Below, one piece after another: positions 11,711-38,093 of a stretch of 53,925 nucleotides of DNA. Position 1 is the first letter of the stretch. Every line of letters begins with the position of its first letter. The stretch lies in the IMG/VR virus record IMGVR_UViG_3300017971_007904; one strand, given 5' to 3'. Made by a program: the position numbers and the translations under genes. The notes beneath the pieces were generated by a model. That model saw only the letters and a list, made by a program, of their open reading frames with translations, searched no databases and had not been told where the DNA came from. Source of the stretch: a virus. Lineage: Duplodnaviria; Heunggongvirae; Uroviricota; Caudoviricetes.

Positions 11711-13432
11711 ATGGTTAACAGGAATCTCTTCAAGAGTGCGTCTCCACGGGATGTTATTAAGAATGAGGCGGGCGGTGTCGCCTACAAGATGTCCGCCAAG
11801 CATGCGCTCGCACAGTACGCTTTCACCGGTACTCTCGCAAACACTTTCTACATCGGTGCCCAAGCGCAACTGGATGCTGTTCTGAAGCTCTGTAAGGAGT
11901 GCGACCCAGAATACGTCGCTAAGACGGCTATTGCCGCACGTAAGGGCTACATGAAGGACATGCCAGCCATGCTGGCTGCCTACCTGCACGCTACCGATCC
12001 GAAGCTCCTGGCTAAGGTCTTTGACCGCATTATCAACAACGGTCTAATGCTGAAGAAGTTCGTCCAGATCGTTAGGTCTGGAGTCACCGGGAGGAGAGGT
12101 TTCGGTTCTACCACAAAGCGAACCATTCGGAAGTGGTTCGATGGCCGAACCGACGTACAACTGATGTACGACAACATCGGTGGTGGTAAGGCTGTATCCC
12201 TGGAGCACATCCTCCGGATGGTTCGGCCAAAGCCAAAGGACAAGACTCGGTCTGCGATGTACGCATGGATTCGTGGTGCAAAGATCACGGAAGGTACGTT
12301 GATCCAGCCAGTCCGGTTCAAGACTGAGGATGGGACCTTCAAGGAGGAGGAGCGATGCTACAACTTCGCCGACCTCCCAGAGCGCCTCCGACTGTGGGAA
12401 GCCTACAAGGCTCATCCAGATGAGTTCGAGTACCCACCGAAGGTGCCATTCCGAATGCTCACCAGCCTCAAGCTGGGAACTAAGGAGTGGACAGGTATCG
12501 CCAAGAATATGTCCTGGGATGAACTGCGCCAAAACCTCGTGACACTCAACCGTCACGGCGTTTTCGACAGCCCTGACATGGTGAAGCAGGTATGTGACCG
12601 GCTGCGAAGTCCTGAGGAAATCGCCAAGGCCAACGTCTTCCCATACCAACTTCTGGCAGCTTACCTGAACACAGGTCCTACGCCGACCGGTTACGGTTGG
12701 ACAACAAGCTACTGGAACACCATGGGTCAACATGACGCCAAGGGTAAGGAAGCCGATAGGATCAAGGTCCCGAAGGAACTGCGGTACGCTTTGGAAGCAG
12801 CCTTGGAAGAGGCTGTCAAGAACGTACCAACAGTCGAAGGGAAGGTCTTCATCTGTCCGGATACGAGCGGATCGATGGGTTACCCGATCACCGGCGACCG
12901 CTACCACTATGGTAAGCCGCCTGCAACTAAGGTGCGATGCGTTGACGTGGCCGGTCTAATCACCGCTGCGATCCTGCGTAGAAACCCACGGGCTGCGGCA
13001 TTGCCATTCTCCACGAGAGTGCATGATGTCGAGCTTCACCCAATGGCCAGCGTTATGCAAAACGCTGAGAAATTCACGTCCTTGGGTGGTGGTGGTACCA
13101 GTTGTAGCGAACCACTTCGTGTGTTGAACGGCCTCAACGCCGAGGGTGATGTTGTTGTCTTCGTGAGTGACTACGAGTCCTGGTCTGACCCACGAGGTAA
13201 CAGCGGTACTGCCATGATGCAGCAGTGGAACCGGTTCAAGGTCCGGAACCCACAGGCGAAGTTGATCTGTATCGACTTGACCCCACGGGGTAACAAGCAG
13301 GTACGGTCACACCCCGATATCCTGCATATTGGAGGCTTCTCCGATCAGGTCTTCAATATCATGAGGGACTTCGTCGAGGGCGAACTTGGTCCTGAGCAGT
13401 GGATCGGCACAATCAAGGAAGTATCCTTGTAA
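11711..13432 (+). CDS. TROVE domain protein (Ro60/Rsr-like RNA-binding protein)
   Basis: N-terminal NEAGGVAY...HALAQYAFTGT; vWA MIDAS-like DTSGSMG; GGGGTS and SDYESW; C-terminal GGFSDQVF. Confidence 0.93.
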   Translation: MVNRNLFKSASPRDVIKNEAGGVAYKMSAKHALAQYAFTGTLANTFYIGAQAQLDAVLKLCKECDPEYVAKTAIAARKGYMKDMPAMLAAYLHATDPKLLAKVFDRIINNGLMLKKFVQIVRSGVTGRRGFGSTTKRTIRKWFDGRTDVQLMYDNIGGGKAVSLEHILRMVRPKPKDKTRSAMYAWIRGAKITEGTLIQPVRFKTEDGTFKEEERCYNFADLPERLRLWEAYKAHPDEFEYPPKVPFRMLTSLKLGTKEWTGIAKNMSWDELRQNLVTLNRHGVFDSPDMVKQVCDRLRSPEEIAKANVFPYQLLAAYLNTGPTPTGYGWTTSYWNTMGQHDAKGKEADRIKVPKELRYALEAALEEAVKNVPTVEGKVFICPDTSGSMGYPITGDRYHYGKPPATKVRCVDVAGLITAAILRRNPRAAALPFSTRVHDVELHPMASVMQNAEKFTSLGGGGTSCSEPLRVLNGLNAEGDVVVFVSDYESWSDPRGNSGTAMMQQWNRFKVRNPQAKLICIDLTPRGNKQVRSHPDILHIGGFSDQVFNIMRDFVEGELGPEQWIGTIKEVSL

Positions 13433-18827: not shown

Positions 18828-19840
18828 GTTTCTACCAATGGAAGACCGATTGGGATGACTACAAGGAATTTTGCAAGAGAGTTCGACAACCCCAGAACGT
18901 CAAGACCATAGAGGAGTTCTGGGCTTATCGTGGTAGGCAATGTGCTAGGTACGGCGGTAGCGCCCGCAACGAATCAGAGAGAATTTGGCTGGCACATGGT
19001 TCTCCATATTATAACGTGCATCCAATGTTGGTCGATCAGTTAACGAAGGTTAATCTGGAAAAGGTGCCGACATCTCTGGTAGAGGTACCATGGCCCTTCG
19101 ATGTCGTCAATATCCGACTCGCAAAACAACAAGCTGCACTGACTCTGGATGCCACGGTAACCGCTACCCAGGATGTTGACTGGAAGGTTGAAGATGTACC
19201 AGCAGGAGCTTTCCTTCGGAGCATGTTGATGATTCGGGGTCACGAGAGGATTTTGAAACCTCTTGGTCGACCTGACGTGAAGAACGCCGACCGTTTTGTC
19301 ATCTTCGCATTCGATTTCGATGTTATAGAGATCGAGAACGGTGTGCGGAGCATTGGTTTTGCGCCGTTGTTCTGGGAGTCGGAAGAGGACTCGCTTCAAG
19401 ACTCCATCGACGTGATGATCGACGAGATGAAGGCGAAGTCCGAATCATACAAATCGCTCGTGGAGAATTGCGTCCGCATGGCGATCACCATTGGCTTCTT
19501 AGCCAACAGTCGGGACAGCATGATCGAGCCCGATGTCCTGACGAAAGATAAGGCCAAGTTCAGGGACGCCGATGATGAGCGTCGTAAAGTGTTGGCACAT
19601 CGTGCGTGGCGACGTGGGAAGAAAGGTTTTAATGTTGGTAACGATCTGATGTTCCTTGCTTCGTCTCCCGCTGCTAAAGGGTCGAAGAGTAGCGGCGATG
19701 GGTCGAGGGAATTGCAATATTGTCATATTCGGGGTGGCCACTGTCATGCAGTTCGGTACGGCGAGGGTAAAAAGAAGGTGAAGATCATGTGGTTCCGTCC
19801 CAACCGGGTGCGAGACGACCTTCCGTTCAAACCGGACTAA
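18824..19840 (+). CDS. Hypothetical protein
   Basis: 338-aa ORF; C-terminal HIRGGHCHAVRYG...WFRPNRV of a kind often seen in phage proteins. Confidence 0.75.
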   Translation: MSFYQWKTDWDDYKEFCKRVRQPQNVKTIEEFWAYRGRQCARYGGSARNESERIWLAHGSPYYNVHPMLVDQLTKVNLEKVPTSLVEVPWPFDVVNIRLAKQQAALTLDATVTATQDVDWKVEDVPAGAFLRSMLMIRGHERILKPLGRPDVKNADRFVIFAFDFDVIEIENGVRSIGFAPLFWESEEDSLQDSIDVMIDEMKAKSESYKSLVENCVRMAITIGFLANSRDSMIEPDVLTKDKAKFRDADDERRKVLAHRAWRRGKKGFNVGNDLMFLASSPAAKGSKSSGDGSRELQYCHIRGGHCHAVRYGEGKKKVKIMWFRPNRVRDDLPFKPD

Positions 19841-20469: not shown

Positions 20470-20790
20470 ATGACCGAGATCATTACCGATTGGGCGACAT
20501 ACGTTGCTCTATACCTAGTGGTCACCATTTTCATCGGGCCACCAACCATTCGGCGAATGTTGGAAGGTATGACTTTGCCGAATGATTCGTGGACGGGCAA
20601 CCCAATCTATTCGTCGGGTTATATCATCAGTGCTTTCTTTTTGCTCATATCCCCAGTGGTGGTAGTGGGTTATTGGGTTCTCTACAAGTTGATTGGATAC
20701 TGTATCATCTATAAGCTGTTGGTTGTCGTTTTCCTTCGGCCCTTCATCGAGTCAGCGATGCCCGACCATTTGAAATTTCCAGAGGAGTGA
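20470..20790 (+). CDS. Membrane protein, tandem paralog 1 of 5
   Basis: DWATYVALYL...PPTIRRM...ISPVVVVGYWV. Confidence 0.75.
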   Translation: MTEIITDWATYVALYLVVTIFIGPPTIRRMLEGMTLPNDSWTGNPIYSSGYIISAFFLLISPVVVVGYWVLYKLIGYCIIYKLLVVVFLRPFIESAMPDHLKFPEE

Positions 20791-20793
20791 ATC

Positions 20794-21150
20794 ATGAACT
20801 GGACTGAAATGCTTAGCGATTGGAAAACGTGGGCTACGGTCTATCTATTGATTCTGGTTTTCCCGACGCCGCCCACGGTGCGACACATCACTAGGAATTG
20901 GAAACCTGTGACAACCTGTGGCGAACCGGATCGCTTTGACCTGGGGCTTCTACACGCAACGTCGTTCTGTATGATGATTTTTGGACCATTCACGATCATC
21001 ATCTATTGGGTGTTCTGGGTGTTTTTATGTCGTTTTGTTTTTGGGAAAGGATTAGGCTTAGGCGCTTTCGGTTGCTTGAACATCGCCGAAATTGGTCTTC
21101 CAAAGCAAGCATGGTATCCGGAAAGGAGAAAGGAAGATGAACTGGACTGA
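20794..21150 (+). CDS. Membrane protein, tandem paralog 2 of 5
   Basis: MNWTEMLSDWKTW...PPTVRHI...FGPFTIIIYWV. Confidence 0.75.
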   Translation: MNWTEMLSDWKTWATVYLLILVFPTPPTVRHITRNWKPVTTCGEPDRFDLGLLHATSFCMMIFGPFTIIIYWVFWVFLCRFVFGKGLGLGAFGCLNIAEIGLPKQAWYPERRKEDELD

Positions 21151-21475
21151 AATTGCTGTCGATTGGAAGACATGGGTTGCGGTCTATTTGTTGATCCTGG
21201 TCATTCCAACACCGCCGACAATTCGGCGGATGACTAAGAATTGGAAGGTCACGACGTGGCTTTCGGGTCCGGACATGGTAGACATTGTTGGGCATCACAT
21301 TGCCGTGCTCCTCATGCTCCTTCTTGGTCCGGTTACTATCTTCATATACTGGGTAGTCTATCGGGTGTGCATACGAGGTACGGGGTGTCTCGGCCTTGGA
21401 TACATTCTTGGGTACATCCTTGGAAACCTACTTCCCGAAACAAGCCGGTGGCCAAGTAGGAGGGAGAAGAAATGA
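21137..21475 (+). CDS. Membrane protein, tandem paralog 3 of 5
   Basis: MNWTEIAVDWKTW...PPTIRRM...LGPVTIFIYWV. Confidence 0.75.
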   Translation: MNWTEIAVDWKTWVAVYLLILVIPTPPTIRRMTKNWKVTTWLSGPDMVDIVGHHIAVLLMLLLGPVTIFIYWVVYRVCIRGTGCLGLGYILGYILGNLLPETSRWPSRREKK

Positions 21476-21798
21476 ACTGGACCGAAATCTGGAGTGATCC
21501 CACCACGTATATCATGCTCTACGTGCTTTCGGTTGTTATCGGAATACCGACATTACGGCGCATGTGGAGTAACGTGAAGGCTTATAGCACTGAGGACATC
21601 GTCACGTTTTACATTATCGGTGTTCTTCTTGTGCTGGTCAGCCCGATCACAATTGTTGCCTATTGGCTCGTTTGGAAACTATTGTTGTATAGTATTTTCT
21701 ACCGAGTCCTGTTCTGTTTTGGCCTTTACCGCCTTGGTAACTTGATAATGCCCGAACAGATTCGTGCAGGGTGGAAACAGAGAATAAGGGAGGATTGA
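21472..21798 (+). CDS. Membrane protein, tandem paralog 4 of 5
   Basis: MNWTEIWSDPTTY...IPTLRRM...VSPITIVAYWL. Confidence 0.75.
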   Translation: MNWTEIWSDPTTYIMLYVLSVVIGIPTLRRMWSNVKAYSTEDIVTFYIIGVLLVLVSPITIVAYWLVWKLLLYSIFYRVLFCFGLYRLGNLIMPEQIRAGWKQRIRED

Positions 21799-21799
21799 G

Positions 21800-22144
21800 A
21801 TGGACTGGTCGCAGCTTTGCCGTTACCTACCGGACGATGTAGCTTCATACATTCTGCTGTACGTGGTCTCGCTGATGATCGGTATACCGACCGTGCGGAA
21901 GATCACCAAGGACTGGGATGTGCCTAGGTATGCTACCGATCTCATCGTAATCTGTTACATCGTTATTTTTCTCGCTATCATCCTGAGCCCGGTAACCATT
22001 CTTCTTTACTGGGTACTTTGGAAGGTCGTGCTTTACGGCATCCTCTACCGCTTCCTTTTCAGAATTGTGATTGTAAAGACAGCGGACCTGTCTGCACCCG
22101 ATACAGTTCGTGAAGTGTACCAAGAAACGATGAAGAAGGAATAA
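21800..22144 (+). CDS. Membrane protein, tandem paralog 5 of 5
   Basis: MDWSQL...IPTVRKI...LSPVTILLYWV. Confidence 0.75.
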   Translation: MDWSQLCRYLPDDVASYILLYVVSLMIGIPTVRKITKDWDVPRYATDLIVICYIVIFLAIILSPVTILLYWVLWKVVLYGILYRFLFRIVIVKTADLSAPDTVREVYQETMKKE

Positions 22145-22150: not shown

Positions 22151-22477
22151 GGCCGAGTGGCGAAACAGGCAAACGCTCAAACAAAGAATAGAGTGATGCA
22201 CGATCTGATCCACAGATTGTTGCGGGTTTGAGCCCCGCACACACCCCCGCAGGGTCAATAGCGGTGTGTTTGGCAGAACGTGGCTCTGGTACTTAGCACC
22301 TACCATCCACGGTGGCGCACGCTCCAGGGCGTGTTAACGGCGTCCAAAGCCAGCCATGAAAATTGCGGTCACGACGATCTCTAAAAGGCTTGTGAAAGGG
22401 CTGGATCGTTTGACGTAATTCACGTTTGTGTTGTTCCCCATAGGAACAACTTGCAGGTTCGAGTCCTGCCTCGGTCA
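22151..22477 (+). ncRNA. tRNA-Leu-like scaffold with a 241-nt structured insertion replacing the anticodon loop
   Basis: Acceptor ggccgag/ctcggtc plus A73; D-arm gcg/cgc; anticodon stem caaac (22178-82)/gtttg (22424-28); long variable arm gttgttcc/ggaacaac; T-arm gcagg-ttcgagt-cctgc. Confidence 0.7.
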
Positions 22478-27469: not shown

Positions 27470-27541
27470 GGTGGCTATGGTGTAGAGGTAGCACGCTTGA
27501 CTGTGGATCAGGCAGCACGGGTTCGACTCCCGTTAGTCACC
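27470..27541 (+). tRNA. tRNA-His(GUG)
   Basis: Cloverleaf; encoded G-1; C73. Confidence 0.93.
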
Positions 27542-27545
27542 CCTA

Positions 27546-27738
27546 GCCGGTTTTCTCGCCTCGGCGGGATCAGGGGCCAATCGAGCATTCCACCGGCGAA
27601 ATACACTAGCTCCTAGGAGATACACGTAATCCTTGGTCACGATCTCGTGTGTCCCGAGTGATCGCAGCTTTGGATTTTTGAGGGCCGGGCCCGAGAAAGT
27701 CTAGCCACCTCTTTGCTGCGGAGCAGAAAAGAGGTGGC
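27546..27738 (+). ncRNA. Unassigned structured RNA between tRNA-His and tRNA-Ile
   Basis: Consecutive hairpins: gccgg/ccggc, gatacacg/cgtgtgtc, ggatttt/aaagtct, gccacctcttt/aaagaggtggc. Confidence 0.4.
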
Positions 27739-27744
27739 GGGTGG

Positions 27745-27817
27745 CCTACGGTAACTCAGTTGGAAGAGTGGCAGTCTGATATACTGCTGGTCGCTGGTTC
27801 AAGTCCAGCCCGTAGGA
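27745..27817 (+). tRNA. tRNA-Ile(GAU)
   Basis: Cloverleaf, cctacgg/ccgtagg acceptor. Confidence 0.9.
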
Positions 27818-27830
27818 CTTGGAGGAAAGA

Positions 27831-28049
27831 ATGAGTATCAGACAGAACGCATTAGTGAGGTTTGACTTTTCGGATTTGCCTGTGAAGTATCACAAGGAGT
27901 ATCCGTTTGCCGAGCATGATCGGTTTGTCTACCTCGGCGACATCGTTCAAATGCCTGGACATTGTGTAGTGGTCAGGCTGAGAGATGATAAGGTTTTCAC
28001 CTGTTACCACACAGACAATTTTGTGGAACTAACTGAAGAGGAGATTTAG
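27831..28049 (+). CDS. Hypothetical protein
   Basis: GGAGG SD. Confidence 0.65.
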   Translation: MSIRQNALVRFDFSDLPVKYHKEYPFAEHDRFVYLGDIVQMPGHCVVVRLRDDKVFTCYHTDNFVELTEEEI

Positions 28050-28055
28050 AGATAA

Positions 28056-28126
28056 GCGGGTATAGCTCAATGGTAGAGTCACTGGCTTCCAACCAGTACA
28101 CCGGAGTTCGATTCTCCGTACCCGCT
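28056..28126 (+). tRNA. tRNA-Gly(UCC)
   Basis: Cloverleaf. Confidence 0.93.
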
Positions 28127-28129
28127 CTT

Positions 28130-28236
28130 GAAGACGAATGCCCAGAGGAATTACATTGATTACCAAGATCGCCGGGCCAATCATCCCGGCAGCCGGGTCA
28201 AACCGGCATGAAGTTTCTCGCACATTTGTCGTCTTC
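28130..28236 (+). ncRNA. Aberrant tRNA-like multi-hairpin RNA
   Basis: Closing stem gaagacga/tcgtcttc; shared AATGC..GGAATTACATT hairpin; ccggg/cccgg and ccgg/ccgg hairpins. Confidence 0.45.
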
Positions 28237-28241
28237 AAAAC

Positions 28242-28327
28242 CGGAGTGTAGCTCAGTCTGGTTAGAGCGCCAGTTTTGGGAACTGGAGGCCGAATGGTAC
28301 ACGCAGGTTCAAATCCTGCCACTCCGA
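28242..28327 (+). tRNA. tRNA-Pro(UGG) with 16-nt variable region
   Basis: Cloverleaf; variable region aggccgaatggtacac. Confidence 0.85.
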
Positions 28328-28370
28328 CTTTTTTGGGGTCAGAAATTTGATTCCCAAACTCTCGTATGGT

Positions 28371-28796
28371 ATGAGAGAATTACAAAGAACATGCCGCTAT
28401 TGCGGTCAAACAAAACCGATTGACGACTTTGAAGTCGCTAGAGTAGTAAAGGAAAAACAATACCGTCGTTGGAGATGTTCCAGGTGCTACCTGGATTGCA
28501 AGAATGAAAGACGACGTAAGATAAACGAATGGTTCTGCGAATACAAGAAGACCCTTCGTTGCCAGAATAGGAAGTGCGGAAATCGAGATCATAGAGTCTT
28601 AGAGTTTCACCACGCCGACCAGAACAAAGAGGCGAATATAGCTGACGTTGTTTGGGGTCGTTGGGGAAAGGATCGGATACTTAGAGAAATTGGTAAGTGT
28701 AAAGTCTTATGTGCAAACTGCCATAGGATCGAACATTATGAAGAACGACACCGAAGCCAGGAGGATACGGTCACTGTCTGCAAAACAGTTGTTTGA
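28371..28796 (+). CDS. HNH endonuclease
   Basis: CRYC/CSRC zinc finger; LEFHH...CKVLCANCHRIEH. Confidence 0.85.
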   Translation: MRELQRTCRYCGQTKPIDDFEVARVVKEKQYRRWRCSRCYLDCKNERRRKINEWFCEYKKTLRCQNRKCGNRDHRVLEFHHADQNKEANIADVVWGRWGKDRILREIGKCKVLCANCHRIEHYEERHRSQEDTVTVCKTVV

Positions 28797-28819
28797 GGGT
28801 TCGACTCCCTCCGGTGTCT
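28747..28819 (+). tRNA. tRNA-Cys(GCA)
   Basis: Cloverleaf, U73; overlaps last 50 nt of HNH ORF. Confidence 0.88.
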
Positions 28820-28882
28820 CTCGAAAGGAAAATATCATGAGGTACGATAGCATCAAGTTGAAACGCAGCGCCCAAATTTGAT

Positions 28883-28955
28883 GGGGTTGTGATGTACATT
28901 GGTCGCATAGCTGGCTTTTACCCAGCCTGACAGAGTTCGATTCTCTGCGGCCCTA
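28883..28955 (+). tRNA. tRNA-Lys(UUU), divergent copy
   Basis: Cloverleaf with G-U-rich acceptor; loop CU-UUU-AC. Confidence 0.7.
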
Positions 28956-28961
28956 CTTGAC

Positions 28962-29033
28962 GCCTTCGTAGCTCAGAGGTAGAGCAGCGGCCTTTTAAGC
29001 CGCAGGTCGTGGTCTCGAACACCACCGGAGGCA
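28962..29033 (+). tRNA. tRNA-Lys(UUU)
   Basis: Cloverleaf; T-loop CUCGAAC. Confidence 0.88.
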
Positions 29034-29059
29034 CTTTAGAGAGGAGAAACAAAACATAA

Positions 29060-29133
29060 GCCTTCGTAGCTCAGCTAGGCAGAGCATCTGGCTCTTAACC
29101 AGAAGTGCGTTGGTTCGATTCCAACCGGAGGCA
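29060..29133 (+). tRNA. tRNA-Lys(CUU)
   Basis: Cloverleaf. Confidence 0.93.
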
Positions 29134-29155
29134 CTAAATAACAGTAGGAGGTTAC

Positions 29156-29341
29156 ATGTCAGAAAATCCAACCTGCTGTTTTAATCCGTGTGAAAACCCC
29201 GGAGCTTTGGAATACCAGAAATGTTTCAAGGAAGAGAATAACAACGGCTGCGGTTGCAGTTGTGATGATGGATCAGGATGCGAACCAGAGGAGAACATAA
29301 GAGTCGTTAGAAACAGGTGGACAAGAGAGGACTTCGTCTAA
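29156..29341 (+). CDS. Small Cys-rich hypothetical protein
   Basis: AGGAGGT SD. Confidence 0.6.
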   Translation: MSENPTCCFNPCENPGALEYQKCFKEENNNGCGCSCDDGSGCEPEENIRVVRNRWTREDFV

Positions 29342-29565
29342 TGACATTACAACGATGTCAGAGACCTCCAACAGGCGGTTGTCCTCGTGGTTGTTGCCAC
29401 TGGAATCCAAACGATCCGAATGCTCCTGAGTATAACAAGGCGTACAAGATAGAGAATAACAGTCAGCTTGCATATGGAACGAACATTGATGTCGCACGAT
29501 GTGCATTGCCGACAAGAGAACCGAGGGTAGTACGGAGTAACAAAACAAGACAAGACTATATTTGA
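29341..29565 (+). CDS. Small Cys-rich hypothetical protein
   Basis: TAATG overlap with previous gene. Confidence 0.5.
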   Translation: MTLQRCQRPPTGGCPRGCCHWNPNDPNAPEYNKAYKIENNSQLAYGTNIDVARCALPTREPRVVRSNKTRQDYI

Positions 29566-29639
29566 CGTGGGGTGGAGCAGTCTGGTAGCTCGCAGGGCTC
29601 ATAACCCTGAGGTCGGAGGTTCAAATCCTCTCCCCACCA
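29566..29639 (+). tRNA. Initiator tRNA-fMet(CAU)
   Basis: 1:72 mismatch; three G-C pairs in anticodon stem. Confidence 0.92.
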
Positions 29640-29640
29640 C

Positions 29641-29713
29641 GCTAGTGTAGCTCAACAGGTAGAGCGCCACACTTGTAATGTGGATGTTGGGGGTTCGATT
29701 CCTCTCACTAGCT
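29641..29713 (+). tRNA. tRNA-Thr(UGU)
   Basis: Cloverleaf. Confidence 0.93.
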
Positions 29714-29797
29714 CTTGATCTTCGGATCAACGCAGGGATCGCTCAGCGATGCTGCGCCCGTGCAAAGACCTTGGGTGGGAAGGCCGGGAAGAAGAAT

Positions 29798-29812
29798 GTT
29801 ATTTGACAATTT
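29798..29812 (+). promoter_or_regulatory. Second boxA-like element
   Basis: gttatttgacaattt, preceded by hairpins at 29715-29760. Confidence 0.5.
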
Positions 29813-29823
29813 GGTAAGCCCTT

Positions 29824-29895
29824 GCGGACGTAGCTCAATGGCAGAGCGCAACGTTGCCAACGTTGAGGTTGTGGGTTCAACTCCCATCGTCCGCT
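29824..29895 (+). tRNA. tRNA-Gly(GCC)
   Basis: Cloverleaf. Confidence 0.95.
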
Positions 29896-29899
29896 CTCT

Positions 29900-29970
29900 G
29901 CGCCCATGGTGTAGCGGTAACACATGACCTTCCCAAGGTTAGGTCACGAGTTCGAGCCTCGTTGGGCGCT
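29900..29970 (+). tRNA. tRNA-Gly(CCC)
   Basis: Cloverleaf. Confidence 0.9.
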
Positions 29971-29975
29971 CTTAT

Positions 29976-30048
29976 GGCCCTATGGACTAACGGTCAGGTC
30001 GTCAGCCTTTCAAGCTGGAGGAGGCGGGTTCGATTCCCCCTAGGGTCA
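29976..30048 (+). tRNA. tRNA-Glu(UUC)
   Basis: Cloverleaf. Confidence 0.9.
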
Positions 30049-30060
30049 CTATATTAAGGC

Positions 30061-30690
30061 ATGAAAGTTCTCTTCTGTGTCTACACTTGTAAGGAAGATG
30101 CAGGGCACCTCCAAGCCTTCAAACGGTCGCCATTGTACAAATGGGTTTCCGATAATGAGGCTTTCGAGGTCATTGAAGTTTATGCCGATGGTTCACTCAA
30201 GGAGCCGACTTTCGAGAATGGCATCCTGACTTTGGCGTGCGACGAAGCGTATCCGAAGTTGAGTGTCAAGACATATGAAATGGTCAGATACTGTCTGAAG
30301 CATTTTGACTTCGACTTTTTGGTCAAGTGCGATTGTACGGTCTTGAATGTTTTTGGCGTCAACAAGCTGTTGAAATTTGTTCGGTCCAAGAAGTCGTACT
30401 TGTACCACTACAATGGTGTCGCCTCATCCAAGCTGACAGAAAGGGTAATGCGAAACTGGAGGAAGAAAAAGGGGTTGGAGGAACAGATTCCTCGAAGCTT
30501 CAAAGTGATGTACCCCGGTCATTCTTCTTTTTCGTTTTACGCTGGTAAGCTTTACATAGTCAGCAGACCGTTTTGCCGTTATATCGCACGTTACGGAAAG
30601 AGGTTGGCGAATAAGTACGTGAAGTACCATCATGGTACTGAAGATCAAATGGTTGGACTGCTTTATCAGCGGTTCACTTTGGCTGGGTAG
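30061..30690 (+). CDS. Glycosyltransferase (GT31/galactosyltransferase-like)
   Basis: FDFLVKCDC DxD-like motif; FYAGKLYIVS; EDQMVG. Confidence 0.7.
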   Translation: MKVLFCVYTCKEDAGHLQAFKRSPLYKWVSDNEAFEVIEVYADGSLKEPTFENGILTLACDEAYPKLSVKTYEMVRYCLKHFDFDFLVKCDCTVLNVFGVNKLLKFVRSKKSYLYHYNGVASSKLTERVMRNWRKKKGLEEQIPRSFKVMYPGHSSFSFYAGKLYIVSRPFCRYIARYGKRLANKYVKYHHGTEDQMVGLLYQRFTLAG

Positions 30691-30754
30691 CTCAGTCCAG
30701 TAGAGCGTTTGGTTGTTAACCAAATTGTCGTGGGAGCGAAGCCCACCCCAGCCT
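30681..30754 (+). tRNA. tRNA-Asn(GUU) with atypical T-loop AGCGAAG
   Basis: Full cloverleaf except for the T-loop. Confidence 0.75.
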
Positions 30755-30764
30755 CTTGAAACAA

Positions 30765-30829
30765 GACTGAGTAAATTGTTGGGACTGGGTTTGATCCCCA
30801 CCCCGTAGGTTCAATTCCTGCCTCAGTCA
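30765..30829 (+). pseudogene. Degenerate tRNA-like element without a D-stem (nominal anticodon UGA)
   Basis: Acceptor gactgag/ctcagtc and T-arm intact; 65 nt. Confidence 0.5.
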
Positions 30830-30835
30830 CTTTAT

Positions 30836-30909
30836 TCCGATGGGTCCATACTGGTAATGGAGCACGGCTGTTAACCGTGTTGTTGGAGGTTCGAGTCCTC
30901 CTGTCGGAG
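30836..30909 (+). tRNA. tRNA-Asn(GUU)
   Basis: Cloverleaf, U1-A72, G73. Confidence 0.92.
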
Positions 30910-30912
30910 CTT

Positions 30913-30986
30913 AGGGTGGATGCCCAGTGGAATTACATTTGACTGTTAATCAAAACCGATAGTTTCACGAATAGTTTGTCACCCTA
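30913..30986 (+). pseudogene. Aberrant tRNA-Asn(GUU)-like element
   Basis: Acceptor and anticodon arm present; D-arm replaced by shared ATGC..GGAATTACAT hairpin; T-arm degenerate. Confidence 0.5.
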
Positions 30987-30991
30987 AAAAC

Positions 30992-31064
30992 GGCCCTGTC
31001 GTCTAATGGCTTAGGACGCCAGCCTCTCACGCTGGAAATCGGAGTTCAATTCTCCGTGGGGTCA
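30992..31064 (+). tRNA. tRNA-Glu(CUC)
   Basis: Cloverleaf. Confidence 0.9.
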
Positions 31065-31065
31065 C

Positions 31066-31881
31066 TTGGCAGTATGATGTCGTCAGGACAGTGCATGGCA
31101 ACATGCATAAAGGAAGGTGTGGCAGCCTTTCGCCCGCTTGCGGGTCCATTCATACAAGCTGACCTTCCTCGGCTTCCTGAAACGGGAGCTAACTGGAACG
31201 TCGCCGGAACAGTCTTCTACTGGCCAACGGTGGGTAGAAGATTTCCAGGGGTAGCGCCCTGGATTACCACGCTAAGACATACCAGCGAGAAGGAACAGTA
31301 GTTGTTCGGTGTAAGGAGTTGCGCCCGAGTGCTGAACTTCAATTTGATAGGAATCGGTAATCCCTTCGCAGGGATTGACGATTGCTTGAAAAATGGGATT
31401 ACAAGGTAGCCAAACCTTGGTCCAGAACGGTGTGTGGCATTTCGCTCCTCAAAAGGGATCGAAACCACAGAGCCAGCACATCGTCGCCAAATGTTGTTAG
31501 CTCAATGGTAGAGCTATCGTCTCTCAAACGATAGGTTATCGGTTCAATCCCGGTACAACACCCAAGCAACAGTCTGGTTCTGCGTTTGATGAAAGCGGCT
31601 TAAATCGGTGACCTTCGGGTAACACCGGCATCCAAAGCTCGCAAGGCCGAGGATGTTAATCACCAAGAGCGACTAGGGGTTTAGCGACCTCGCACTGCTC
31701 GCAAGGCAGGGTTAATCGAAGTGATTGAGTAGTCAAACGGTAAGAAGGAAATGCCACCTTCTAAAACAAGGCAGTCGTGAGTGGATACGCTCGTGGAGCG
31801 TGGATAGGCTCTTAACGGCCCATGCAAAAAGGCCGGTACGGGAGTCAAAGATCACTCAGAGTATGGTGTAATCTCAGCCCA
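31066..31881 (+). ncRNA. GOLLD-like giant ncRNA (~815 nt)
   Basis: Dense hairpins (tgcatg/catgca, tcttctac/gtagaaga, aatccct/agggatt, ggtgtgtggc/gccagcacatc); CTCAAAAGG, GAGTAG, GTGGATA and terminal TGTAATCTCAGCC blocks match my recollection of GOLLD; size and tRNA-array context fit. Confidence 0.7.
31491..31564 (+). tRNA. tRNA (anticodon CUC) embedded in the GOLLD-like RNA
   Basis: tgttgt/acaaca acceptor; gctc/gagc D-stem; atcgt-CU-CUC-AA-acgat; T-arm atcgg-ttcaatc-ccggt. Confidence 0.75.
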
Positions 31882-31899
31882 CTCTTATCTAAATATGAC

Positions 31900-32526
31900 A
31901 TGGCACTTCTACTTCCACATAGCTTAATGATACACGTCCCCAAAACTGGTGGAAGTTGGTGCCGAATGGCGTTGCGAGTCGCCAAGATCAAGCACAGGGA
32001 ATTGCATACCCACAAAGGCGCAGGTTGTCGCCATGAAGGTATCAAGTCTGTTTTGAAGAATGCTCGCAATCGTTTTACCTTTGGCTTCGTAAGGAATCCG
32101 CTGACATGGCTGCAAAGTCGGTGGGCCTACACAATGCGAAGTACAGACGGTAATGGTGGCGGGACTCCTCGTTGGTCAACAGACTTCAACGAATGGGTGG
32201 AGGGCATCACGACCCACCACCCCAACTATGTTTTCCAGGCGATCTTGCATCGTCTTGGGTACGAGAAAATCGATGGCCAGTGGCAGCCCGGTCATCACGC
32301 TGTAGATTTCGTAGGGCGAACAGAGCACCTTGTAAATGATTTCGTCAAAGCGCTGAAGAAGGCGAATGAGAAGTTTGACGAAAGGGCAATAAGACATGTT
32401 GCACCACAAAAGGTTTGCTCTCGTGGCGATTACTGGCAGAAGAAAGTCCAGTATCGCCCGCACCTACGTGACCTCGTCATCGAGGTCAACCGCCCGATCT
32501 TCGATTTGTTCGGGTATGAGTCTTAA
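31900..32526 (+). CDS. Sulfotransferase family protein
   Basis: MIHVPKTGGSW; VRNPLTWLQSRW; GRTEHL; start 4 nt after TAAATA. Confidence 0.85.
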   Translation: MALLLPHSLMIHVPKTGGSWCRMALRVAKIKHRELHTHKGAGCRHEGIKSVLKNARNRFTFGFVRNPLTWLQSRWAYTMRSTDGNGGGTPRWSTDFNEWVEGITTHHPNYVFQAILHRLGYEKIDGQWQPGHHAVDFVGRTEHLVNDFVKALKKANEKFDERAIRHVAPQKVCSRGDYWQKKVQYRPHLRDLVIEVNRPIFDLFGYES

Positions 32527-32566
32527 AATACGGCTCGAACCACTCCTTTATAGAAAAGGAGATAGT

Positions 32567-32902
32567 ATGCCGTACAAAGACCCAGCTAAGCAAAAGGCTG
32601 CACAAGCTTCGCACTATCAACAAAACAAAGATCGCTTCAAGCAACGTGCAAGGGATCGTATAGAACGAAATCGTCGATTTGTGCGTGAATACAAGGAAGG
32701 GTGTAGTTGTGAAGTGTGTGGTGAAGACCGGTGGCAAGTGTTAGACTTTCATCACAAAGATGAGGGTACCAAGTACAAAGGGGTGGCAAATCTCGTTTGT
32801 AATCGTTCATCTATCAAAAAGATCAAAGCGGAGATTGCCAAATGTATGGTGGTCTGTGCTAATTGCCATCGTATGATCCATGAGGGAAATACGTGGTCAT
32901 AA
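32567..32902 (+). CDS. HNH endonuclease
   Basis: CEVCG...LDFHH...CMVVCANCHRMIH; AAGGAG SD. Confidence 0.85.
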   Translation: MPYKDPAKQKAAQASHYQQNKDRFKQRARDRIERNRRFVREYKEGCSCEVCGEDRWQVLDFHHKDEGTKYKGVANLVCNRSSIKKIKAEIAKCMVVCANCHRMIHEGNTWS

Positions 32903-32904
32903 CC

Positions 32905-32979
32905 GCTCCAGTGGTGTAATTGGTTAACACACCTGCCTGTCACGCAGGAGACGTGCCGGTTCAAGTCCGGTCTGGGGCG
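32905..32979 (+). tRNA. tRNA-Asp(GUC)
   Basis: Cloverleaf. Confidence 0.88.
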
Positions 32980-33024
32980 CTAGGAGGGGCTGCGGCCTCC
33001 CATGACAAAAACACGCAGAGCGAT

Positions 33025-33095
33025 GGCCTCTTCGTCTAATGGTAAGACACCAGACTGTCGATCTGGCAACAGGAGTTCGATTCTCCTAGGGGTCG
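33025..33095 (+). tRNA. tRNA-Asp(GUC), second copy
   Basis: Cloverleaf. Confidence 0.9.
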
Positions 33096-33099
33096 TTTC

Positions 33100-33197
33100 G
33101 TCGGTGACCTTCATAATAAAGAAGGCATTGGAGAGTCTGTAACGGGTTCGATACCCGGCCAAGGAGGCAGCAATCTCCTTGAGCAAGCCGAACCGAC
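33100..33197 (+). ncRNA. Permuted tRNA-like RNA (Y RNA/YrlA candidate)
   Basis: gtcggt/accgac closing stem; T-arm cggg-ttcgata-cccg followed by a loop-closed 7-bp stem caaggag/ctccttg. Confidence 0.35.
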
Positions 33198-33200
33198 TTT

Positions 33201-33272
33201 TGGCTGATAGTGTAATTGGAAGCACGACTGACTTTGAATCAGTTAGTGGAGGTTCAAGTCCTCCTTGGCCAG
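33201..33272 (+). tRNA. tRNA-Gln(UUG)
   Basis: Cloverleaf, U1-A72. Confidence 0.93.
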
Positions 33273-33295
33273 CTTGCTGTTCGTTCAATAACCAA

Positions 33296-33365
33296 AGGGG
33301 TGGTACCCTAGGTAGGACGCCGCTGTGATGGCGGAAATATGGGTGTCACCAAATCCCGTACAGCA
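33296..33365 (+). pseudogene. Degenerate tRNA-like element
   Basis: Residual anticodon-like (cgccg/tggcg) and T-like (atggg/cccgt) arms. Confidence 0.25.
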
Positions 33366-33370
33366 AATAC

Positions 33371-33448
33371 AGGGGGGATGTTGCTGGGACAACAGGCGGT
33401 CTCCAAAGCCGCTGCTTTCGCTGTGGGGTTCGATTCCTCTCCTCCCTG
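33371..33448 (+). tRNA. tRNA-Trp(CCA) with 11-nt variable region
   Basis: Cloverleaf; variable region tgctttcgctg. Confidence 0.82.
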
Positions 33449-33477
33449 CTTTTTCTTCGATGTGCGGTAAATAGAGC

Positions 33478-34053
33478 ATGGGACTCCTGCCTGAAACCGC
33501 CGCTTTTGAGAAACATATTTTCAAGCGTCTGGGTATTCGTTTGATGGGTCTTCGGATGTGCGAACTGGGCAATCAGATGCTTATGGGATCGATGGGGCGA
33601 GGCGCAGCCAAGTTTCGGTATTGCTCCCATGGTGCGATCCACGTCTCTATCGATTGGAATGGCAAATCAGGAGCCATTCCCTTTGATCTCCAGAAACCTC
33701 TTCCTCGTATTTTCCATAGATGGTTTCAAGTTGTGACGGACTATGGAACTTTGGAACATGTGCAGACCCAGTATCCGGCTTGGAAGAACGTCCACCAACT
33801 ATGTGCTTATGGTGGAATCATGATTCATGTTCTACCCTTAATAGGTCGCTGGCATGGTCATGGTCTGCATCACTTTTCACAGGAGATAATGGACAAAATA
33901 GGGAAGGCGTGCTCATACCAGATTATTGAGAATACGATAATCCCTTCCTCGAAGGTCAAGCCTCAAGTGGCAACTGTCTATCGAAAAACTCGAAAGAGCA
34001 CTTTTCCGTCGAAGGAAATCTTTGACAAGATAGAGATTCCCCCGGCGACGTAA
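33478..34053 (+). CDS. Class I SAM-dependent methyltransferase
   Basis: MCELGNQ; SIDWNG; VVTDYGTLEHV; GGIMIHVLP. Confidence 0.75.
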   Translation: MGLLPETAAFEKHIFKRLGIRLMGLRMCELGNQMLMGSMGRGAAKFRYCSHGAIHVSIDWNGKSGAIPFDLQKPLPRIFHRWFQVVTDYGTLEHVQTQYPAWKNVHQLCAYGGIMIHVLPLIGRWHGHGLHHFSQEIMDKIGKACSYQIIENTIIPSSKVKPQVATVYRKTRKSTFPSKEIFDKIEIPPAT

Positions 34054-34125
34054 CTCCTCATAGTTCAACGGATAGAATACGACCCTCCGAAGGTCATGAT
34101 GTTGGTTCGATTCCAACTGAGGAGA
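34054..34125 (+). tRNA. tRNA-Arg(CCG)
   Basis: Cloverleaf. Confidence 0.9.
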
Positions 34126-34137
34126 CTAGATACCCAC

Positions 34138-34644
34138 ATGAGATTCAGATTGTGGGTAGAAACGATTGTTCACGAAGACGAACATGTAAGGATTCGGGAC
34201 GCTGAAGCTTCCGATATTCCCGAACTCTTCACGCACAAGACTGAAGACGTTGAGGACATCCTCGCTATCCAACAGCAGGGATTCAACCTTAGGAAGTTCG
34301 GCCAGACATCGAGAAGGTTCCGCAGCCCCGCCTATCTTACAGAATACGACCCAAAGGGCGTTTATGCTACGGCTGGTGGTGGGGAAAGTTTAAGCCCGTA
34401 TGATAAACGACCTTATGTGGTCTTCAGAGCAGACATCAACAAAGCTCTGGTTCTGGAAGAGAAGACACATCAAGAGAATCCTAAGCAAGTTCTGTCTGAG
34501 TTGTACGGCGGCAAGACCGGCGCACAACTGAGAAACGCCTTGATGAAGGACGGTTACCAAGCTGTTCTTCGCCCCGGCAGTGAACAAATCATTCTTGACC
34601 CATCGATTATCACAATCGTATCAGTGGGTAACACATCCTCGTAG
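34138..34644 (+). CDS. Capsid-targeted protein, possible ADP-ribosyltransferase-like fold
   Basis: MRFRLWVE; GVYAT...GYQAV...EQIILDP pattern; start 5 nt after TAGATA. Confidence 0.6.
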   Translation: MRFRLWVETIVHEDEHVRIRDAEASDIPELFTHKTEDVEDILAIQQQGFNLRKFGQTSRRFRSPAYLTEYDPKGVYATAGGGESLSPYDKRPYVVFRADINKALVLEEKTHQENPKQVLSELYGGKTGAQLRNALMKDGYQAVLRPGSEQIILDPSIITIVSVGNTSS

Positions 34645-34707
34645 CTCAGCGGATAGAGCACTAGTTTGCGGAACTAGTTGTCGCTGGTTCGATTCCAGCC
34701 GGGGATG
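34635..34707 (+). tRNA. tRNA-Arg(GCG)
   Basis: Cloverleaf; rare anticodon. Confidence 0.9.
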
Positions 34708-34712
34708 CTTAC

Positions 34713-34785
34713 GCTCCCGTAGCTCAATGGACAGAGCAGCACGCTTCTAACGTGACGGTTGTGGGTTCAAATCCTACCGGGAGTG
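34713..34785 (+). tRNA. tRNA-Arg(UCU)
   Basis: Cloverleaf. Confidence 0.93.
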
Positions 34786-34787
34786 CT

Positions 34788-34916
34788 TGCGGGGTAGTGT
34801 AATGGCTAGCACGCTTTACGTGTTTCACGCCCTTATTGTCTCTTATCAGAGAATGCTCAGTGGAATTACATTGGTATTCGGAACCAGTAGAGCAGGTTCG
34901 ATTCCTGCCCCCGCAA
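34788..34916 (+). ncRNA. tRNA(UCG)-like gene with a 57-nt insertion between D-arm and anticodon arm
   Basis: tgcgggg/ccccgca acceptor; gtgt/gcac D-stem; insertion 34814-34870; ttggt-AU-UCG-GA-accag; T-arm intact. Confidence 0.6.
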
Positions 34917-34922
34917 CTTTTT

Positions 34923-34995
34923 GCCCCGTTAGCTCAATGGATAGAGCGCCAGTCTTCGGAACTGGATGTTGGGAGTTCAAGTCTCTCACGGGGTG
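34923..34995 (+). tRNA. tRNA-Arg(UCG)
   Basis: Cloverleaf. Confidence 0.93.
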
Positions 34996-34999
34996 CTTT

Positions 35000-35072
35000 G
35001 GGACATTGGTGTAACGGTGAAGCACACGACCCTTATAAGGCCGAAGACAAGGTTCGATTCCTTGATGTCCTA
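35000..35072 (+). tRNA. tRNA-Ile(UAU)
   Basis: Cloverleaf with one anticodon-stem mismatch; rare anticodon. Confidence 0.8.
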
Positions 35073-35669
35073 CTTGAGTTCGCACGAGAACCCGAACTGT
35101 TTGATGAGCTTAGCGTATCGCTTTGCGACAAAGTCCCGAGTTCTCCGGTTGTAGTACTGGGTGAAGTGCTTGTGGCGTGAAGTGTTGCATCTCGGCAACT
35201 CTGTTGTATCGATACCCAGCTTCTCGCAGACCGTATCAAAATCTTCTTGCAGTTGGTCAAATTGGATGAAGTAGTCCATTCGTTGTTGGCCATCTATCTC
35301 GAAGAAGCGTTGGTATTTGGCATCTGTGAACCAAAGGTTGGATAGGATGTATTCCGAGAAGGTATGAGTTCGGCAGAACTTGTTTAGGCACCACCAGTAT
35401 GGGTTTCGTCTCCACTGCCGGATACTACCTTTGTATTGCCTGTTGAAGAAGTAGGCAGACACTTCTACATCCCAAGGGTTTCTGATAACGGTGAACTTGA
35501 AGTAGTCGTCAATGATCTCTGGGCCATACTTCGCTAGATACTCATAAAGGCGACCATGGTGTCCGTGTCGCACGGTTGACGTGTTCTCATTACCGAGTGC
35601 GTGTTGAATCGAAGTACCACCAGTCTTTGGAATGTGAATGAATATGAATTTGTGATTGTGGCAGATCAT
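35070..35669 (-). CDS. Sulfotransferase family 2 protein
   Basis: FIFIHIPKTGGTSI; IRNPWDVEVSAY; FDQLQEDF. Confidence 0.9.
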   Translation of the reverse strand: MICHNHKFIFIHIPKTGGTSIQHALGNENTSTVRHGHHGRLYEYLAKYGPEIIDDYFKFTVIRNPWDVEVSAYFFNRQYKGSIRQWRRNPYWWCLNKFCRTHTFSEYILSNLWFTDAKYQRFFEIDGQQRMDYFIQFDQLQEDFDTVCEKLGIDTTELPRCNTSRHKHFTQYYNRRTRDFVAKRYAKLIKQFGFSCELK

Positions 35670-35673
35670 TTTC

Positions 35674-35701
35674 TAAAGTTTCGATAATTCAATGTCGATA
35701 C
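35674..35701 (+). promoter_or_regulatory. Sigma-28-like promoter candidate
   Basis: TAAAGTTT-N12-GTCGATAC, a few nt upstream of ATG 35708. Confidence 0.6.
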
Positions 35702-35707
35702 ATAAGT

Positions 35708-36250
35708 ATGGAAACTTATGTAGATAGTGTCGGTCATAAGCGAAAAGGCATCAAGGTGAGTTGTCACACTTGCCAAAAATCATTTCTAACTCGAAAAGAT
35801 CAAGCTGCTCGATATTGCTCTAGGAAATGTTTTCATAGTGCCCAACGACGTAGAGTGACACATAATTGTGCTTATTGTGGCAAATTATTTGAGCTACGGC
35901 AGTCACGTATCTCTAAGAGTGGTTTGCACTGCTGTTCTAAAAAGTGCAAGGATCGGGCTCAGCGTATAGGTGGTGTTACCAAAATGCTTCCAAGCCATTA
36001 CGGCACAGGGAGTAGTTCGGCTTCATATCGAGCCGAATACCATCGCTTGACGGGTCTGGAAAAATTGGCGTGTGGTCGCTGTGGTTACGATGAATTTGAA
36101 TGTGGTATTGATATACATCATTTAGACAGCGATAGGCAAAATAATAAGAAAGAAAATCTATTTGCCTTGTGTGCGCCATGCCACAGGGCCTTACATAATG
36201 GGTTGTGGCAGATAGAAAACGGGGGTGTAGCTCAACTGGGAGAGCGCTAG
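35708..36250 (+). CDS. HNH endonuclease with N-terminal zinc-finger repeats
   Basis: CHTC..YCSRKC; CAYC..CCSKKC; CGRCG...IHH...N...LCAPCHRALH. Confidence 0.85.
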   Translation: METYVDSVGHKRKGIKVSCHTCQKSFLTRKDQAARYCSRKCFHSAQRRRVTHNCAYCGKLFELRQSRISKSGLHCCSKKCKDRAQRIGGVTKMLPSHYGTGSSSASYRAEYHRLTGLEKLACGRCGYDEFECGIDIHHLDSDRQNNKKENLFALCAPCHRALHNGLWQIENGGVAQLGER

Positions 36251-36293
36251 TCTGGCAGACTAGAGGTTGCGGGATCGTACCCCGCCACCTCCA
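36221..36293 (+). tRNA. tRNA-Ala(GGC)
   Basis: G3-U70; T-loop AUCGUAC. Confidence 0.9.
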
Positions 36294-36369
36294 CCTTTCG
36301 ACCCTGTGTTGGAGGAGCCCACCACTTACGAGCCGGGTTCAAAGCTCGGTAGGGTCGGATACATATAGC

Positions 36370-37238: not shown

Positions 37239-37408
37239 AGATAACTTTTGAGGTAACGTCCGAAGAAGCGAAATGGCTGAAAAGCGATTTGGGACTTTTG
37301 AGTGAGATGGCGCATGACGGCGAATACGATGAAGATGGCAAGCGTGAATCGCTATACGCCAGACTTCACTTATTAGTCTGGAAGCAGATGAAGGAAGAAG
37401 ATGCCTAG
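37235..37408 (+). CDS. Hypothetical protein
   Basis: Coupled ORF, GGAGG SD. Confidence 0.55.
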   Translation: MKITFEVTSEEAKWLKSDLGLLSEMAHDGEYDEDGKRESLYARLHLLVWKQMKEEDA

Positions 37409-38085: not shown

Positions 38086-38093
38086 AATTTTAC

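What the first reader, a model, noticed from the sequence alone, without database searches (positions are those of the whole stretch)
22151..22477. tRNA-Leu scaffold carrying a 241-nt structured domain instead of an anticodon loop
Seen: complete acceptor, D, anticodon-stem, long variable and T arms of a Leu-type tRNA (A73), with 22183-22423 inserted in the loop. The insert is hairpin-rich (gatctg/cagatt, gcggg/ccccgc, cacacc/ggtgtg, cacgc/gcgtg, acgatct/ggatcgt). I cannot find group I P/Q/R/S motifs or a 5'-U/3'-G splice pair that restores a 7-nt loop, and there is no tmRNA G3-U70. Inference: an unclassified intron or ribozyme, or a tRNA-chassis ncRNA that could be aminoacylated or act as a decoy. 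It is the only Leu-like tRNA in the window.
Basis: partly seen in the sequence, partly recalled or inferred. Interest (0 to 1): 0.75.

Follow-up and report, generated by a model that had tools for sequence, protein, structure and literature searches.

The report
tRNA look-alike nested inside another
A large phage carries a 327-base gene shaped like a leucine tRNA whose anticodon loop is replaced by a long insert that itself holds a second, back-to-front tRNA fragment, so it cannot read codons and is probably not an intron; it has no known relatives, and it may be either a working tRNA mimic or a decaying remnant.

Summary
The outer scaffold is real: acceptor 7/7 with A73, Leu-type D arm, 8-bp variable arm, perfect T arm, and a 5/5 anticodon stem around 241 nt (0 in 300 shuffles). 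No single excision restores a U33 loop, and there is no G3-U70, so intron and tmRNA readings fail. This is the V-T-acceptor order of YrlA Y RNAs, and the phage encodes Ro60. However, the Ro-binding motif and an intact D arm are missing, and a natural tRNA-Asp has the same acceptor, so a decayed tRNA-duplication junction is a live rival. I found no homolog and hence no covariation. The scan has reported anticodon-less Leu-scaffold RNAs many times on other phage DNA. The nested form was seen only here. Best reading: a non-decoding, two-headed tRNA mimic (0.55); decaying remnant (0.3).

The parts
22151..22477 (+). Whole element: Leu-type tRNA scaffold with nested permuted tRNA module; no encoded CCA
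   Evidence: 3' trailer starts CT as in 33 of 39 T-arm genes counted in the window
22151..22157 (+). Outer acceptor, 5' strand (pairs 7/7 with 22470-22476)
   Evidence: pairing probability 0.99; same acceptor type as canonical tRNA-Leu of related phages, L135
22158..22176 (+). Outer Leu-type D arm (U8, A14, A15, G18, G19, 3-bp stem)
   Evidence: numbering by inspection
22178..22182 (+). Outer anticodon stem, 5' strand (pairs 5/5 with 22424-22428; not favoured in the ViennaRNA ensemble)
22200..22220 (+). Inner 8-bp hairpin with 5-nt loop, in variable-arm position before the inner T arm
   Evidence: (probability 0.96)
22222..22238 (+). Inner T arm, 5-bp stem, T loop with C56U
   Evidence: 21/22 match to a tRNA-His T-arm region in L298
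22239..22245 (+). Inner acceptor, 3' strand (comes first: permuted order)
   Evidence: pairs 7/7 Watson-Crick with 22263-22269; identical to a natural tRNA-Asp acceptor, L364
22246..22262 (+). 17-nt linker closing the inner acceptor
22263..22269 (+). Inner acceptor, 5' strand
22270..22292 (+). Degenerate D-arm remnant (5' side deleted in the model alignment) followed by a possible anticodon-loop remnant; register uncertain
   Evidence: alignment; comparison with L364; inference
22361..22420 (+). Long irregular hairpin capped by a possible GNRA loop; unassigned
   Evidence: z -3.7; no match to the Ro-stem model
22424..22428 (+). Outer anticodon stem, 3' strand
22430..22450 (+). Outer variable arm, 8 bp with 5-nt loop (38 canonical class II controls have 3-6 bp)
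22453..22469 (+). Outer T arm, canonical
22470..22477 (+). Outer acceptor 3' strand and discriminator A73
11711..13432 (+). Context: Ro60 (TROVE + vWA) gene of the same phage, 8.7 kb upstream; possible partner, link not shown

Best explanation
The element is a non-decoding, unspliced tRNA-mimic RNA with two tRNA-like heads. Shown: an intact outer tRNA-Leu body whose 5' half and 3' half are 241 nt apart, and inside it a permuted module (hairpin, T arm, loop-closed acceptor, D remnant); both fold together at a cost of 1.4 kcal/mol. Inferred: it is co-transcribed with the flanking genes (6 nt after one stop codon, 10 nt before the next start), cut out by RNase P and 3' trimming, given CCA by the host, and so stabilised, as in laboratory tRNA-scaffold chimeras (my own knowledge). 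It keeps A73 and the D/T-loop contacts that E. coli LeuRS uses without reading the anticodon (my own knowledge), so it may be leucylated, but it cannot decode. Most likely role (inferred, weak): it presents tRNA elbows and acceptor helices as a decoy or scaffold for tRNA-handling proteins (host anticodon nucleases and tRNA sensors, or the phage's Ro60/RNA-repair machinery). Its likely origin is a tandem tRNA region fixed in a strand-swapped fold, or a YrlA-like or duplicated-tRNA fragment inserted into the anticodon loop of a tRNA-Leu gene.
For: Outer scaffold 0/300 shuffles; anticodon-stem register 0.13%. Inner V+T+closed acceptor 0/20,000 shuffles, T arm alone 108/20,000. A covariance model of Ro60-linked T-acceptor-D modules scores 22214-22283 at 23.5 bits, E about 1e-5, the best hit in 1-27300 against a background of 9.4 bits or less. 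Acceptor strands pair only crosswise: outer 7/7, inner 7/7, within units 2/7 and 4/7. The insert is not coding-like in any frame. 146 scaffolds with a Leu-type D arm were flagged non-canonical in phage, metagenome and genome loci, about two thirds with middles longer than a normal tRNA. Full scaffolds with a 58-nt loop insert lie next to Ro60 genes in cyanobacteria. The phage encodes Ro60.
Against: No homolog in INPHARED phages, plasmids, IMG/VR, metagenomes, GTDB genomes, or related phage loci, so no covariation and no evidence of selection. The inner T loop has C56U and the inner D arm is broken. The inner acceptor is identical to a natural tRNA-Asp acceptor, so its pairing can be inherited from a duplicated gene; ordinary tandem tRNA junctions score higher on the same model (48.7 bits at 34675). 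The Ro-binding motif, YUAY and the Ro-stem model are not matched. The insert overall is only mildly structured (z -1.4). The descriptor used was written after seeing the sequence.
Confidence: 0.55

Rival explanations
1. Decaying remnant: a tRNA-Leu gene was interrupted by a DNA piece that carried the junction of a tandemly duplicated Asp-like tRNA (3' half, spacer, 5' half), or a small tRNA cluster collapsed. The RNA may be processed but does nothing.
For: Singleton in every search; homologs of the downstream gene have no RNA upstream; C56U and the D-arm deletion in the inner module; identical natural Asp acceptor; Chen et al. 2014 (PMC4201824) warn that dimeric tRNAs mimic YrlA; related phages carry different odd orphan tRNA-like genes in this region (L371, L370); the window has no functional class II tRNA.
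Against: The outer scaffold has no broken pair in acceptor, anticodon stem, variable arm or T stem although its anticodon-stem sequence and 8-bp variable arm differ from the canonical Leu tRNAs of related phages. The hairpin before the inner T arm is a perfect 8 bp in a register that is not an anticodon arm.
Confidence: 0.3
2. tRNA with an unrecognised intron (divergent group I or protein-spliced) that yields a working tRNA-Leu, which the phage otherwise lacks in this window.
For: Size (241 nt) and position resemble group I introns in tRNA-Leu (L299, L236). Rfam detected only 1 of 3 such controls, so its silence is weak evidence.
Against: All eight single excisions give A33; the insert ends in C, not G; the only P7-like pairing has its 5' strand 30 nt from the start, leaving no room for P3-P6 (inspection); the one relaxed bulge-helix-bulge match would delete the anticodon-stem 3' strand; L299 and L236 restore a canonical loop.
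Confidence: 0.07
3. tmRNA-like ribosome-rescue RNA, either one-piece (outer head) or two-piece (inner permuted head followed by a tag frame at 22339-22383 after a UAAC motif).
For: Overall size and layout resemble tmRNA; the inner module has the permuted order and a reduced D region; a 14-codon frame starts with Ala.
Against: No G3-U70 in either head; the outer head has a D stem and both an anticodon stem and a variable arm, incompatible with the SmpB-binding geometry (my own knowledge); ARAGORN makes no call down to 80% of threshold; no Rfam tmRNA hit; the tag ends in Asp-Asp-Leu.
Confidence: 0.04
4. The insert supplies in trans the tRNA-elbow-binding (specificity) domain that the phage's miniature RNase P RNA at 45877-46072 lacks.
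For: Short likeness to RNase P conserved regions II and III at 22210-22219 and 22392-22400 (from memory); the miniature RNase P is real.
Against: The region II-like pentamer lacks the closing A of a T-loop; the region III-like motif folds as a GNRA-capped hairpin; no RNase P model hit; near-complete phages with the miniature RNase P carry no such element.
Confidence: 0.02

Closest known systems
YrlA, bacterial and phage Y RNA (Rfam RF02553; Chen et al. 2014 PMC4201824; Wang et al. 2018, 10.1101/312249)
   Same: Inner module has the V, T, loop-closed acceptor order of a circularly permuted tRNA; Ro60 is encoded in the same genome; the cited model derives YrlA from dimeric tRNA transcripts.
   Different: Embedded in a complete Leu scaffold with free acceptor ends; D arm broken; C56U; no GNCGAAN0-1G or YUAY motif in place; 8.7 kb from Ro60; no RF02553 hit.
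Bacterial/phage class II tRNA-Leu (Rfam RF00005)
   Same: Acceptor type, A73, D arm, A15-U48, one unpaired base after the variable stem, T arm.
   Different: No anticodon loop or U33; 241-nt insert; 8-bp variable arm.
Group I introns in tRNA-Leu (Rfam RF00028; control L299)
   Same: Insert size and position in the anticodon loop of a Leu scaffold.
   Different: No splice pair, no terminal G, no ordered catalytic core; excision does not restore a loop.
tmRNA (Rfam RF00023 and two-piece forms)
   Same: tRNA-like ends around a domain of about 240 nt.
   Different: No G3-U70; has D stem, anticodon stem and variable arm; no recognised tag or pseudoknot set.
Phage T4 RNAs C and D (stable, function unknown; PMC9697503) and the predicted b7a-tRNA (cited in 10.1101/312249; source paper not held)
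   Same: Non-decoding tRNA-like RNAs encoded among tRNA or RNA-repair genes.
   Different: T4 rnaC has a hairpin, T arm and 3' acceptor strand but no Leu-type D arm; b7a-tRNA could not be compared.
Anticodon-less Leu-scaffold phage RNAs
   Same: Same D arm, T arm and paired acceptor with a variable middle.
   Different: Middles there are mostly 40-134 nt and seldom keep both anticodon stem and variable arm; here 276 nt with both and a nested second head.

Membership tests
Group I intron | 5' exon ending in U and intron ending in G, excision restoring a 7-nt loop with U33 | tested here: not met
   controls L299 and L236 meet it
Group I intron | Rfam RF00028 match | tested here: inconclusive
   no hit, but only 1 of 3 controls was detected
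Group I intron | P3-P4-P6-P7 core in canonical order | tested here: not met
   by inspection and folds; no dedicated descriptor was run
Group I intron | GTP-dependent self-splicing | not testable with these tools
   bench assay
tmRNA | G3-U70 alanine identity | tested here: not met
   outer C3-G70, inner U3-A70
tmRNA | tRNA-like domain without D stem plus resume codon and tag | tested here: not met
   ARAGORN no call at 80% threshold; no Rfam hit; the candidate tag frame is unassigned
YrlA Y RNA | V, T and loop-closed acceptor in permuted order | tested here: met
YrlA Y RNA | Conserved D stem-loop after the acceptor, intact elbow (G19-C56) | tested here: not met
   5' side of D arm deleted in alignment, C56U
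YrlA Y RNA | GNCGAAN0-1G Ro-binding motif and YUAY linker | tested here: not met
   linker matrix score at chance level; Ro-stem model R2 no hit
YrlA Y RNA | Encoded adjacent to Ro60 | tested here: inconclusive
   Ro60 8.7 kb upstream, same strand, many genes between
YrlA Y RNA | Bound by Ro60/Rsr | not testable with these tools
   bench assay
Class II tRNA-Leu | Acceptor, A73, Leu-type D arm, long variable arm, T arm | tested here: met
Class II tRNA-Leu | 7-nt anticodon loop with U33 and a Leu anticodon | tested here: not met
Class II tRNA-Leu | Leucylation by LeuRS | not testable with these tools
   bench assay
Bulge-helix-bulge tRNA intron | BHB motif at exon junctions giving a canonical tRNA | tested here: not met
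   one relaxed match that would remove the anticodon-stem strand
HDV-like (theta) ribozyme | Nested double pseudoknot with catalytic C | tested here: inconclusive
   three loose descriptor matches sharing one P1 and a 4-bp P2, no shuffle control; no Rfam hit
Anticodon-less Leu-scaffold RNAs (undescribed class) | Leu-type D arm, T arm and paired acceptor around a non-canonical middle | tested here: met

The most novel reading that the evidence does not exclude
The gene is a selected, strand-swapped tRNA dimer: one RNA with an open, chargeable Leu head and a closed YrlA-type head. It would be a living example of the dimeric-tRNA intermediate proposed for the origin of bacterial Y RNAs, working with the phage's Ro60 as a tRNA-shaped tether or decoy.
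Probability: 0.2. Interest if true: 0.75.

Novelty: new variant of a known kind. Interest (0 to 1): 0.5.

Why it matters
If functional, it extends natural tRNA scaffolds to cargo of 240 nt and joins two kinds of mimic in one molecule: anticodon-less Leu scaffolds, whose function is unknown, and permuted Y-RNA-type modules. It offers a direct test of the dimeric-tRNA model for YrlA origin and of whether phages use tRNA shapes as decoys or Ro60 tethers. If it is a remnant, it still shows how such mimics can arise. Being a singleton, it is a lead rather than a family.

Tried and rejected
Own genome not held and the source contig could not be fetched. Homolog searches all negative: blastn in phages and plasmids; patterns in IMG/VR (12, 20), metagenomes and GTDB genomes; related phages reached through RF1, the miniature RNase P (46, 49-57), Ro60 and the downstream gene. 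L238 shares the D arm exactly but has no matching T arm. Split RNase P idea rejected (see rivals). An eye-catching likeness of hairpin 22361-22420 to the cyanobacterial Ro-stem module was not supported by the model. A UACUUCG-type linker before the outer variable arm scored at chance level. Short helices 22189-94/22283-88 and 22293-99/22330-36 are chance-sized and not used. An amber-suppressor-like heptamer at about 22378-84 would need two excisions and is expected by chance (about 0.2, my estimate). The 20-codon ORF 22358-22420 has no ribosome-binding site and non-coding codon use. T4 rnaC, named as closest in earlier notes, lacks the Leu D arm. Burroughs and Aravind 2016 (b7a-tRNA) was not held. 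Genome G037 (L326, L343, L358) is unpublished: L326 was one of 19 rows in model R2 and one example of the 58-nt-insert class; no conclusion depends on it.

Full report
Setting. The window is part of a contig of about 298 kb from a large bacterial phage. It holds 39 array tRNAs at 27471-44262 with none for Leu, Ser, Tyr or Phe, a GOLLD RNA, a miniature RNase P RNA, an RF-1-domain gene and a Ro60 gene. The element lies alone, 5 kb before the tRNA array, 6 nt after the stop of a small membrane-protein gene and 10 nt before the next start codon.

Observation. The outer scaffold is as described: acceptor 7/7 with A73, Leu-type D arm, 5/5 anticodon stem, 8-bp variable arm, canonical T arm, no encoded CCA. 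The scaffold appears in 0 of 300 shuffles and the anticodon-stem register in 0.13%. Its acceptor is of the type used by canonical tRNA-Leu in related phages. The 241-nt insert is non-coding by codon use but only mildly structured overall (z -1.4). ViennaRNA gives the anticodon and D stems almost no weight, so their formation would depend on tertiary folding.

Not an intron, not tmRNA. Every single excision leaves A33, and the insert ends in C. Group I introns of similar size in tRNA-Leu fetched as controls (L299, L236) restore a canonical loop. Rfam gives no hit, but it found only one of three controls, so the splice-site argument carries the weight. Neither head has G3-U70, and ARAGORN makes no tmRNA call down to 80% of its threshold.

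The wider class. A pattern for Leu-type D arms without U33 returned many scaffolds with a D arm, T arm and paired acceptor around a variable middle: 146 were flagged non-canonical, about a third of them of normal tRNA length, and most of the rest with middles of 40-134 nt. Earlier notes of this scan describe the same class on many other genomes. Few members keep both anticodon stem and variable arm around a long insert. The clearest that do are cyanobacterial elements with a 58-nt insert; they lie beside Ro60 genes, and the Ro60-adjacent arrays of Chloroflexi match YrlA below threshold at E 1e-9 to 1e-6, the cyanobacterial ones only weakly.

A short-word search matched 22219-22240 to a real tRNA T arm. 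The insert contains, in order, an 8-bp hairpin (22200-20), a T arm with C56U (22222-38), an acceptor 3' strand (22239-45), a 17-nt linker, the matching 5' strand (22263-69) and a D remnant. This combination occurred in 0 of 20,000 shuffles (descriptor written after the fact). A covariance model built from Ro60-linked modules, without the window, ranks it first in 1-27300 at 23.5 bits. The acceptor strands pair only crosswise, and both heads fold together at a cost of 1.4 kcal/mol. Among 878 comparable D-arm/two-T-arm cases in the fetched loci only the window shows this nested form. The order V, T, closed acceptor, D is that of YrlA (PMC4201824), for which an origin from dimeric tRNA transcripts has been proposed (10.1101/312249).

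Limits. Membership in YrlA fails on the D arm, the Ro-binding motif and the linker. A natural tRNA-Asp has exactly the inner acceptor and T stem, so the inner pairing could be inherited from a tandem duplicate, and ordinary tRNA junctions score higher on the same model. No homolog was found by any route. Related phages have other solitary tRNA-like genes between Ro60 and the tRNA array, not this one. There is therefore no covariation and no expression evidence.

Mechanism. Shown: the two heads and their compatibility. Inferred from established tRNA biology (my own knowledge): release from a polycistronic transcript by RNase P and 3' trimming, CCA addition, possible leucylation since E. coli LeuRS ignores the anticodon, and no decoding. 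Inferred more weakly: a role as decoy or scaffold for tRNA-handling proteins; jumbo phages with TROVE proteins are thought to use tRNA-like partners in RNA repair (PMC7824862). I put 0.55 on a functional non-decoding mimic, 0.3 on a decaying remnant, 0.07 on an intron, 0.04 on tmRNA-like action and 0.02 on a split RNase P.

Verdict. Real, not an intron, a new variant of tRNA-mimic RNA: a Leu scaffold with a nested permuted tRNA module. The scaffold class has been seen by this scan before; I found the nested form neither in the papers searched nor in earlier notes. Interest 0.5, held down by the lack of any relative. Genome G037 (unpublished) contributed one row to model R2 only.

Noticed in passing
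L136:1495-1600 and L137 (related phage records G011, G005): tRNA-Leu(UAA) with a 23-nt insertion inside the anticodon loop; removal would restore a canonical loop, so it may be a tiny intron.
   Followed up: no
L156 and L180 (records G014, G013), minus strand; also L146:1395-1526: tRNA bodies of 118-132 nt whose anticodon region carries a motif resembling theta (HDV-like) ribozymes; likeness judged from memory.
   Followed up: no
L262, L274, L305, L329, L306 (cyanobacteria); L275, L297, L318, L270 (Chloroflexi); L193 (phage G012): Arrays of tRNA-shaped RNAs carrying a conserved Y-RNA-like stem module, in normal order in cyanobacteria and in chained permuted order in Chloroflexi; Ro60 genes are adjacent in L262, L274, L305, L270, L275, L318 and L193. 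None reaches the Rfam YrlA threshold.
   Followed up: partly
window 33100-33197: Y-RNA-like element (terminal stem, T arm, loop-closed stem); weak on my model (11.4 bits); possibly this phage's own Ro60 partner.
   Followed up: partly
window 34788-34916, 39670-39755, 38090-38165, 30750-30832: Further aberrant tRNA-like elements inside the tRNA array that ARAGORN does not call.
   Followed up: no
window 27471-44262; L365, L370, L371: The tRNA array lacks Leu, Ser, Tyr and Phe, and so do the parts of the arrays seen in three related phages.
   Followed up: partly
L371:12460-12542 and L370 about 19000-19085: Solitary tRNA-like genes between Ro60 and the tRNA array in related phages: one with an enlarged anticodon arm, one with C56U and unpaired acceptor ends.
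   Followed up: partly
window 45877-46072; L154-L169: A pattern for short RNase P RNAs found 16 viral loci, most clearly of the same miniature type.
   Followed up: partly
window 20470-22144: Five adjacent small hydrophobic genes with similar N-termini, apparently a tandem paralog family; no Pfam match for the two tested.
   Followed up: no
L289, L315, L330, L331 (Acidobacteria); L322; L283: Tandem repeats of about 120-130 nt that each begin with the 5' half of tRNA-Leu, upstream of an intact tRNA-Leu.
   Followed up: no
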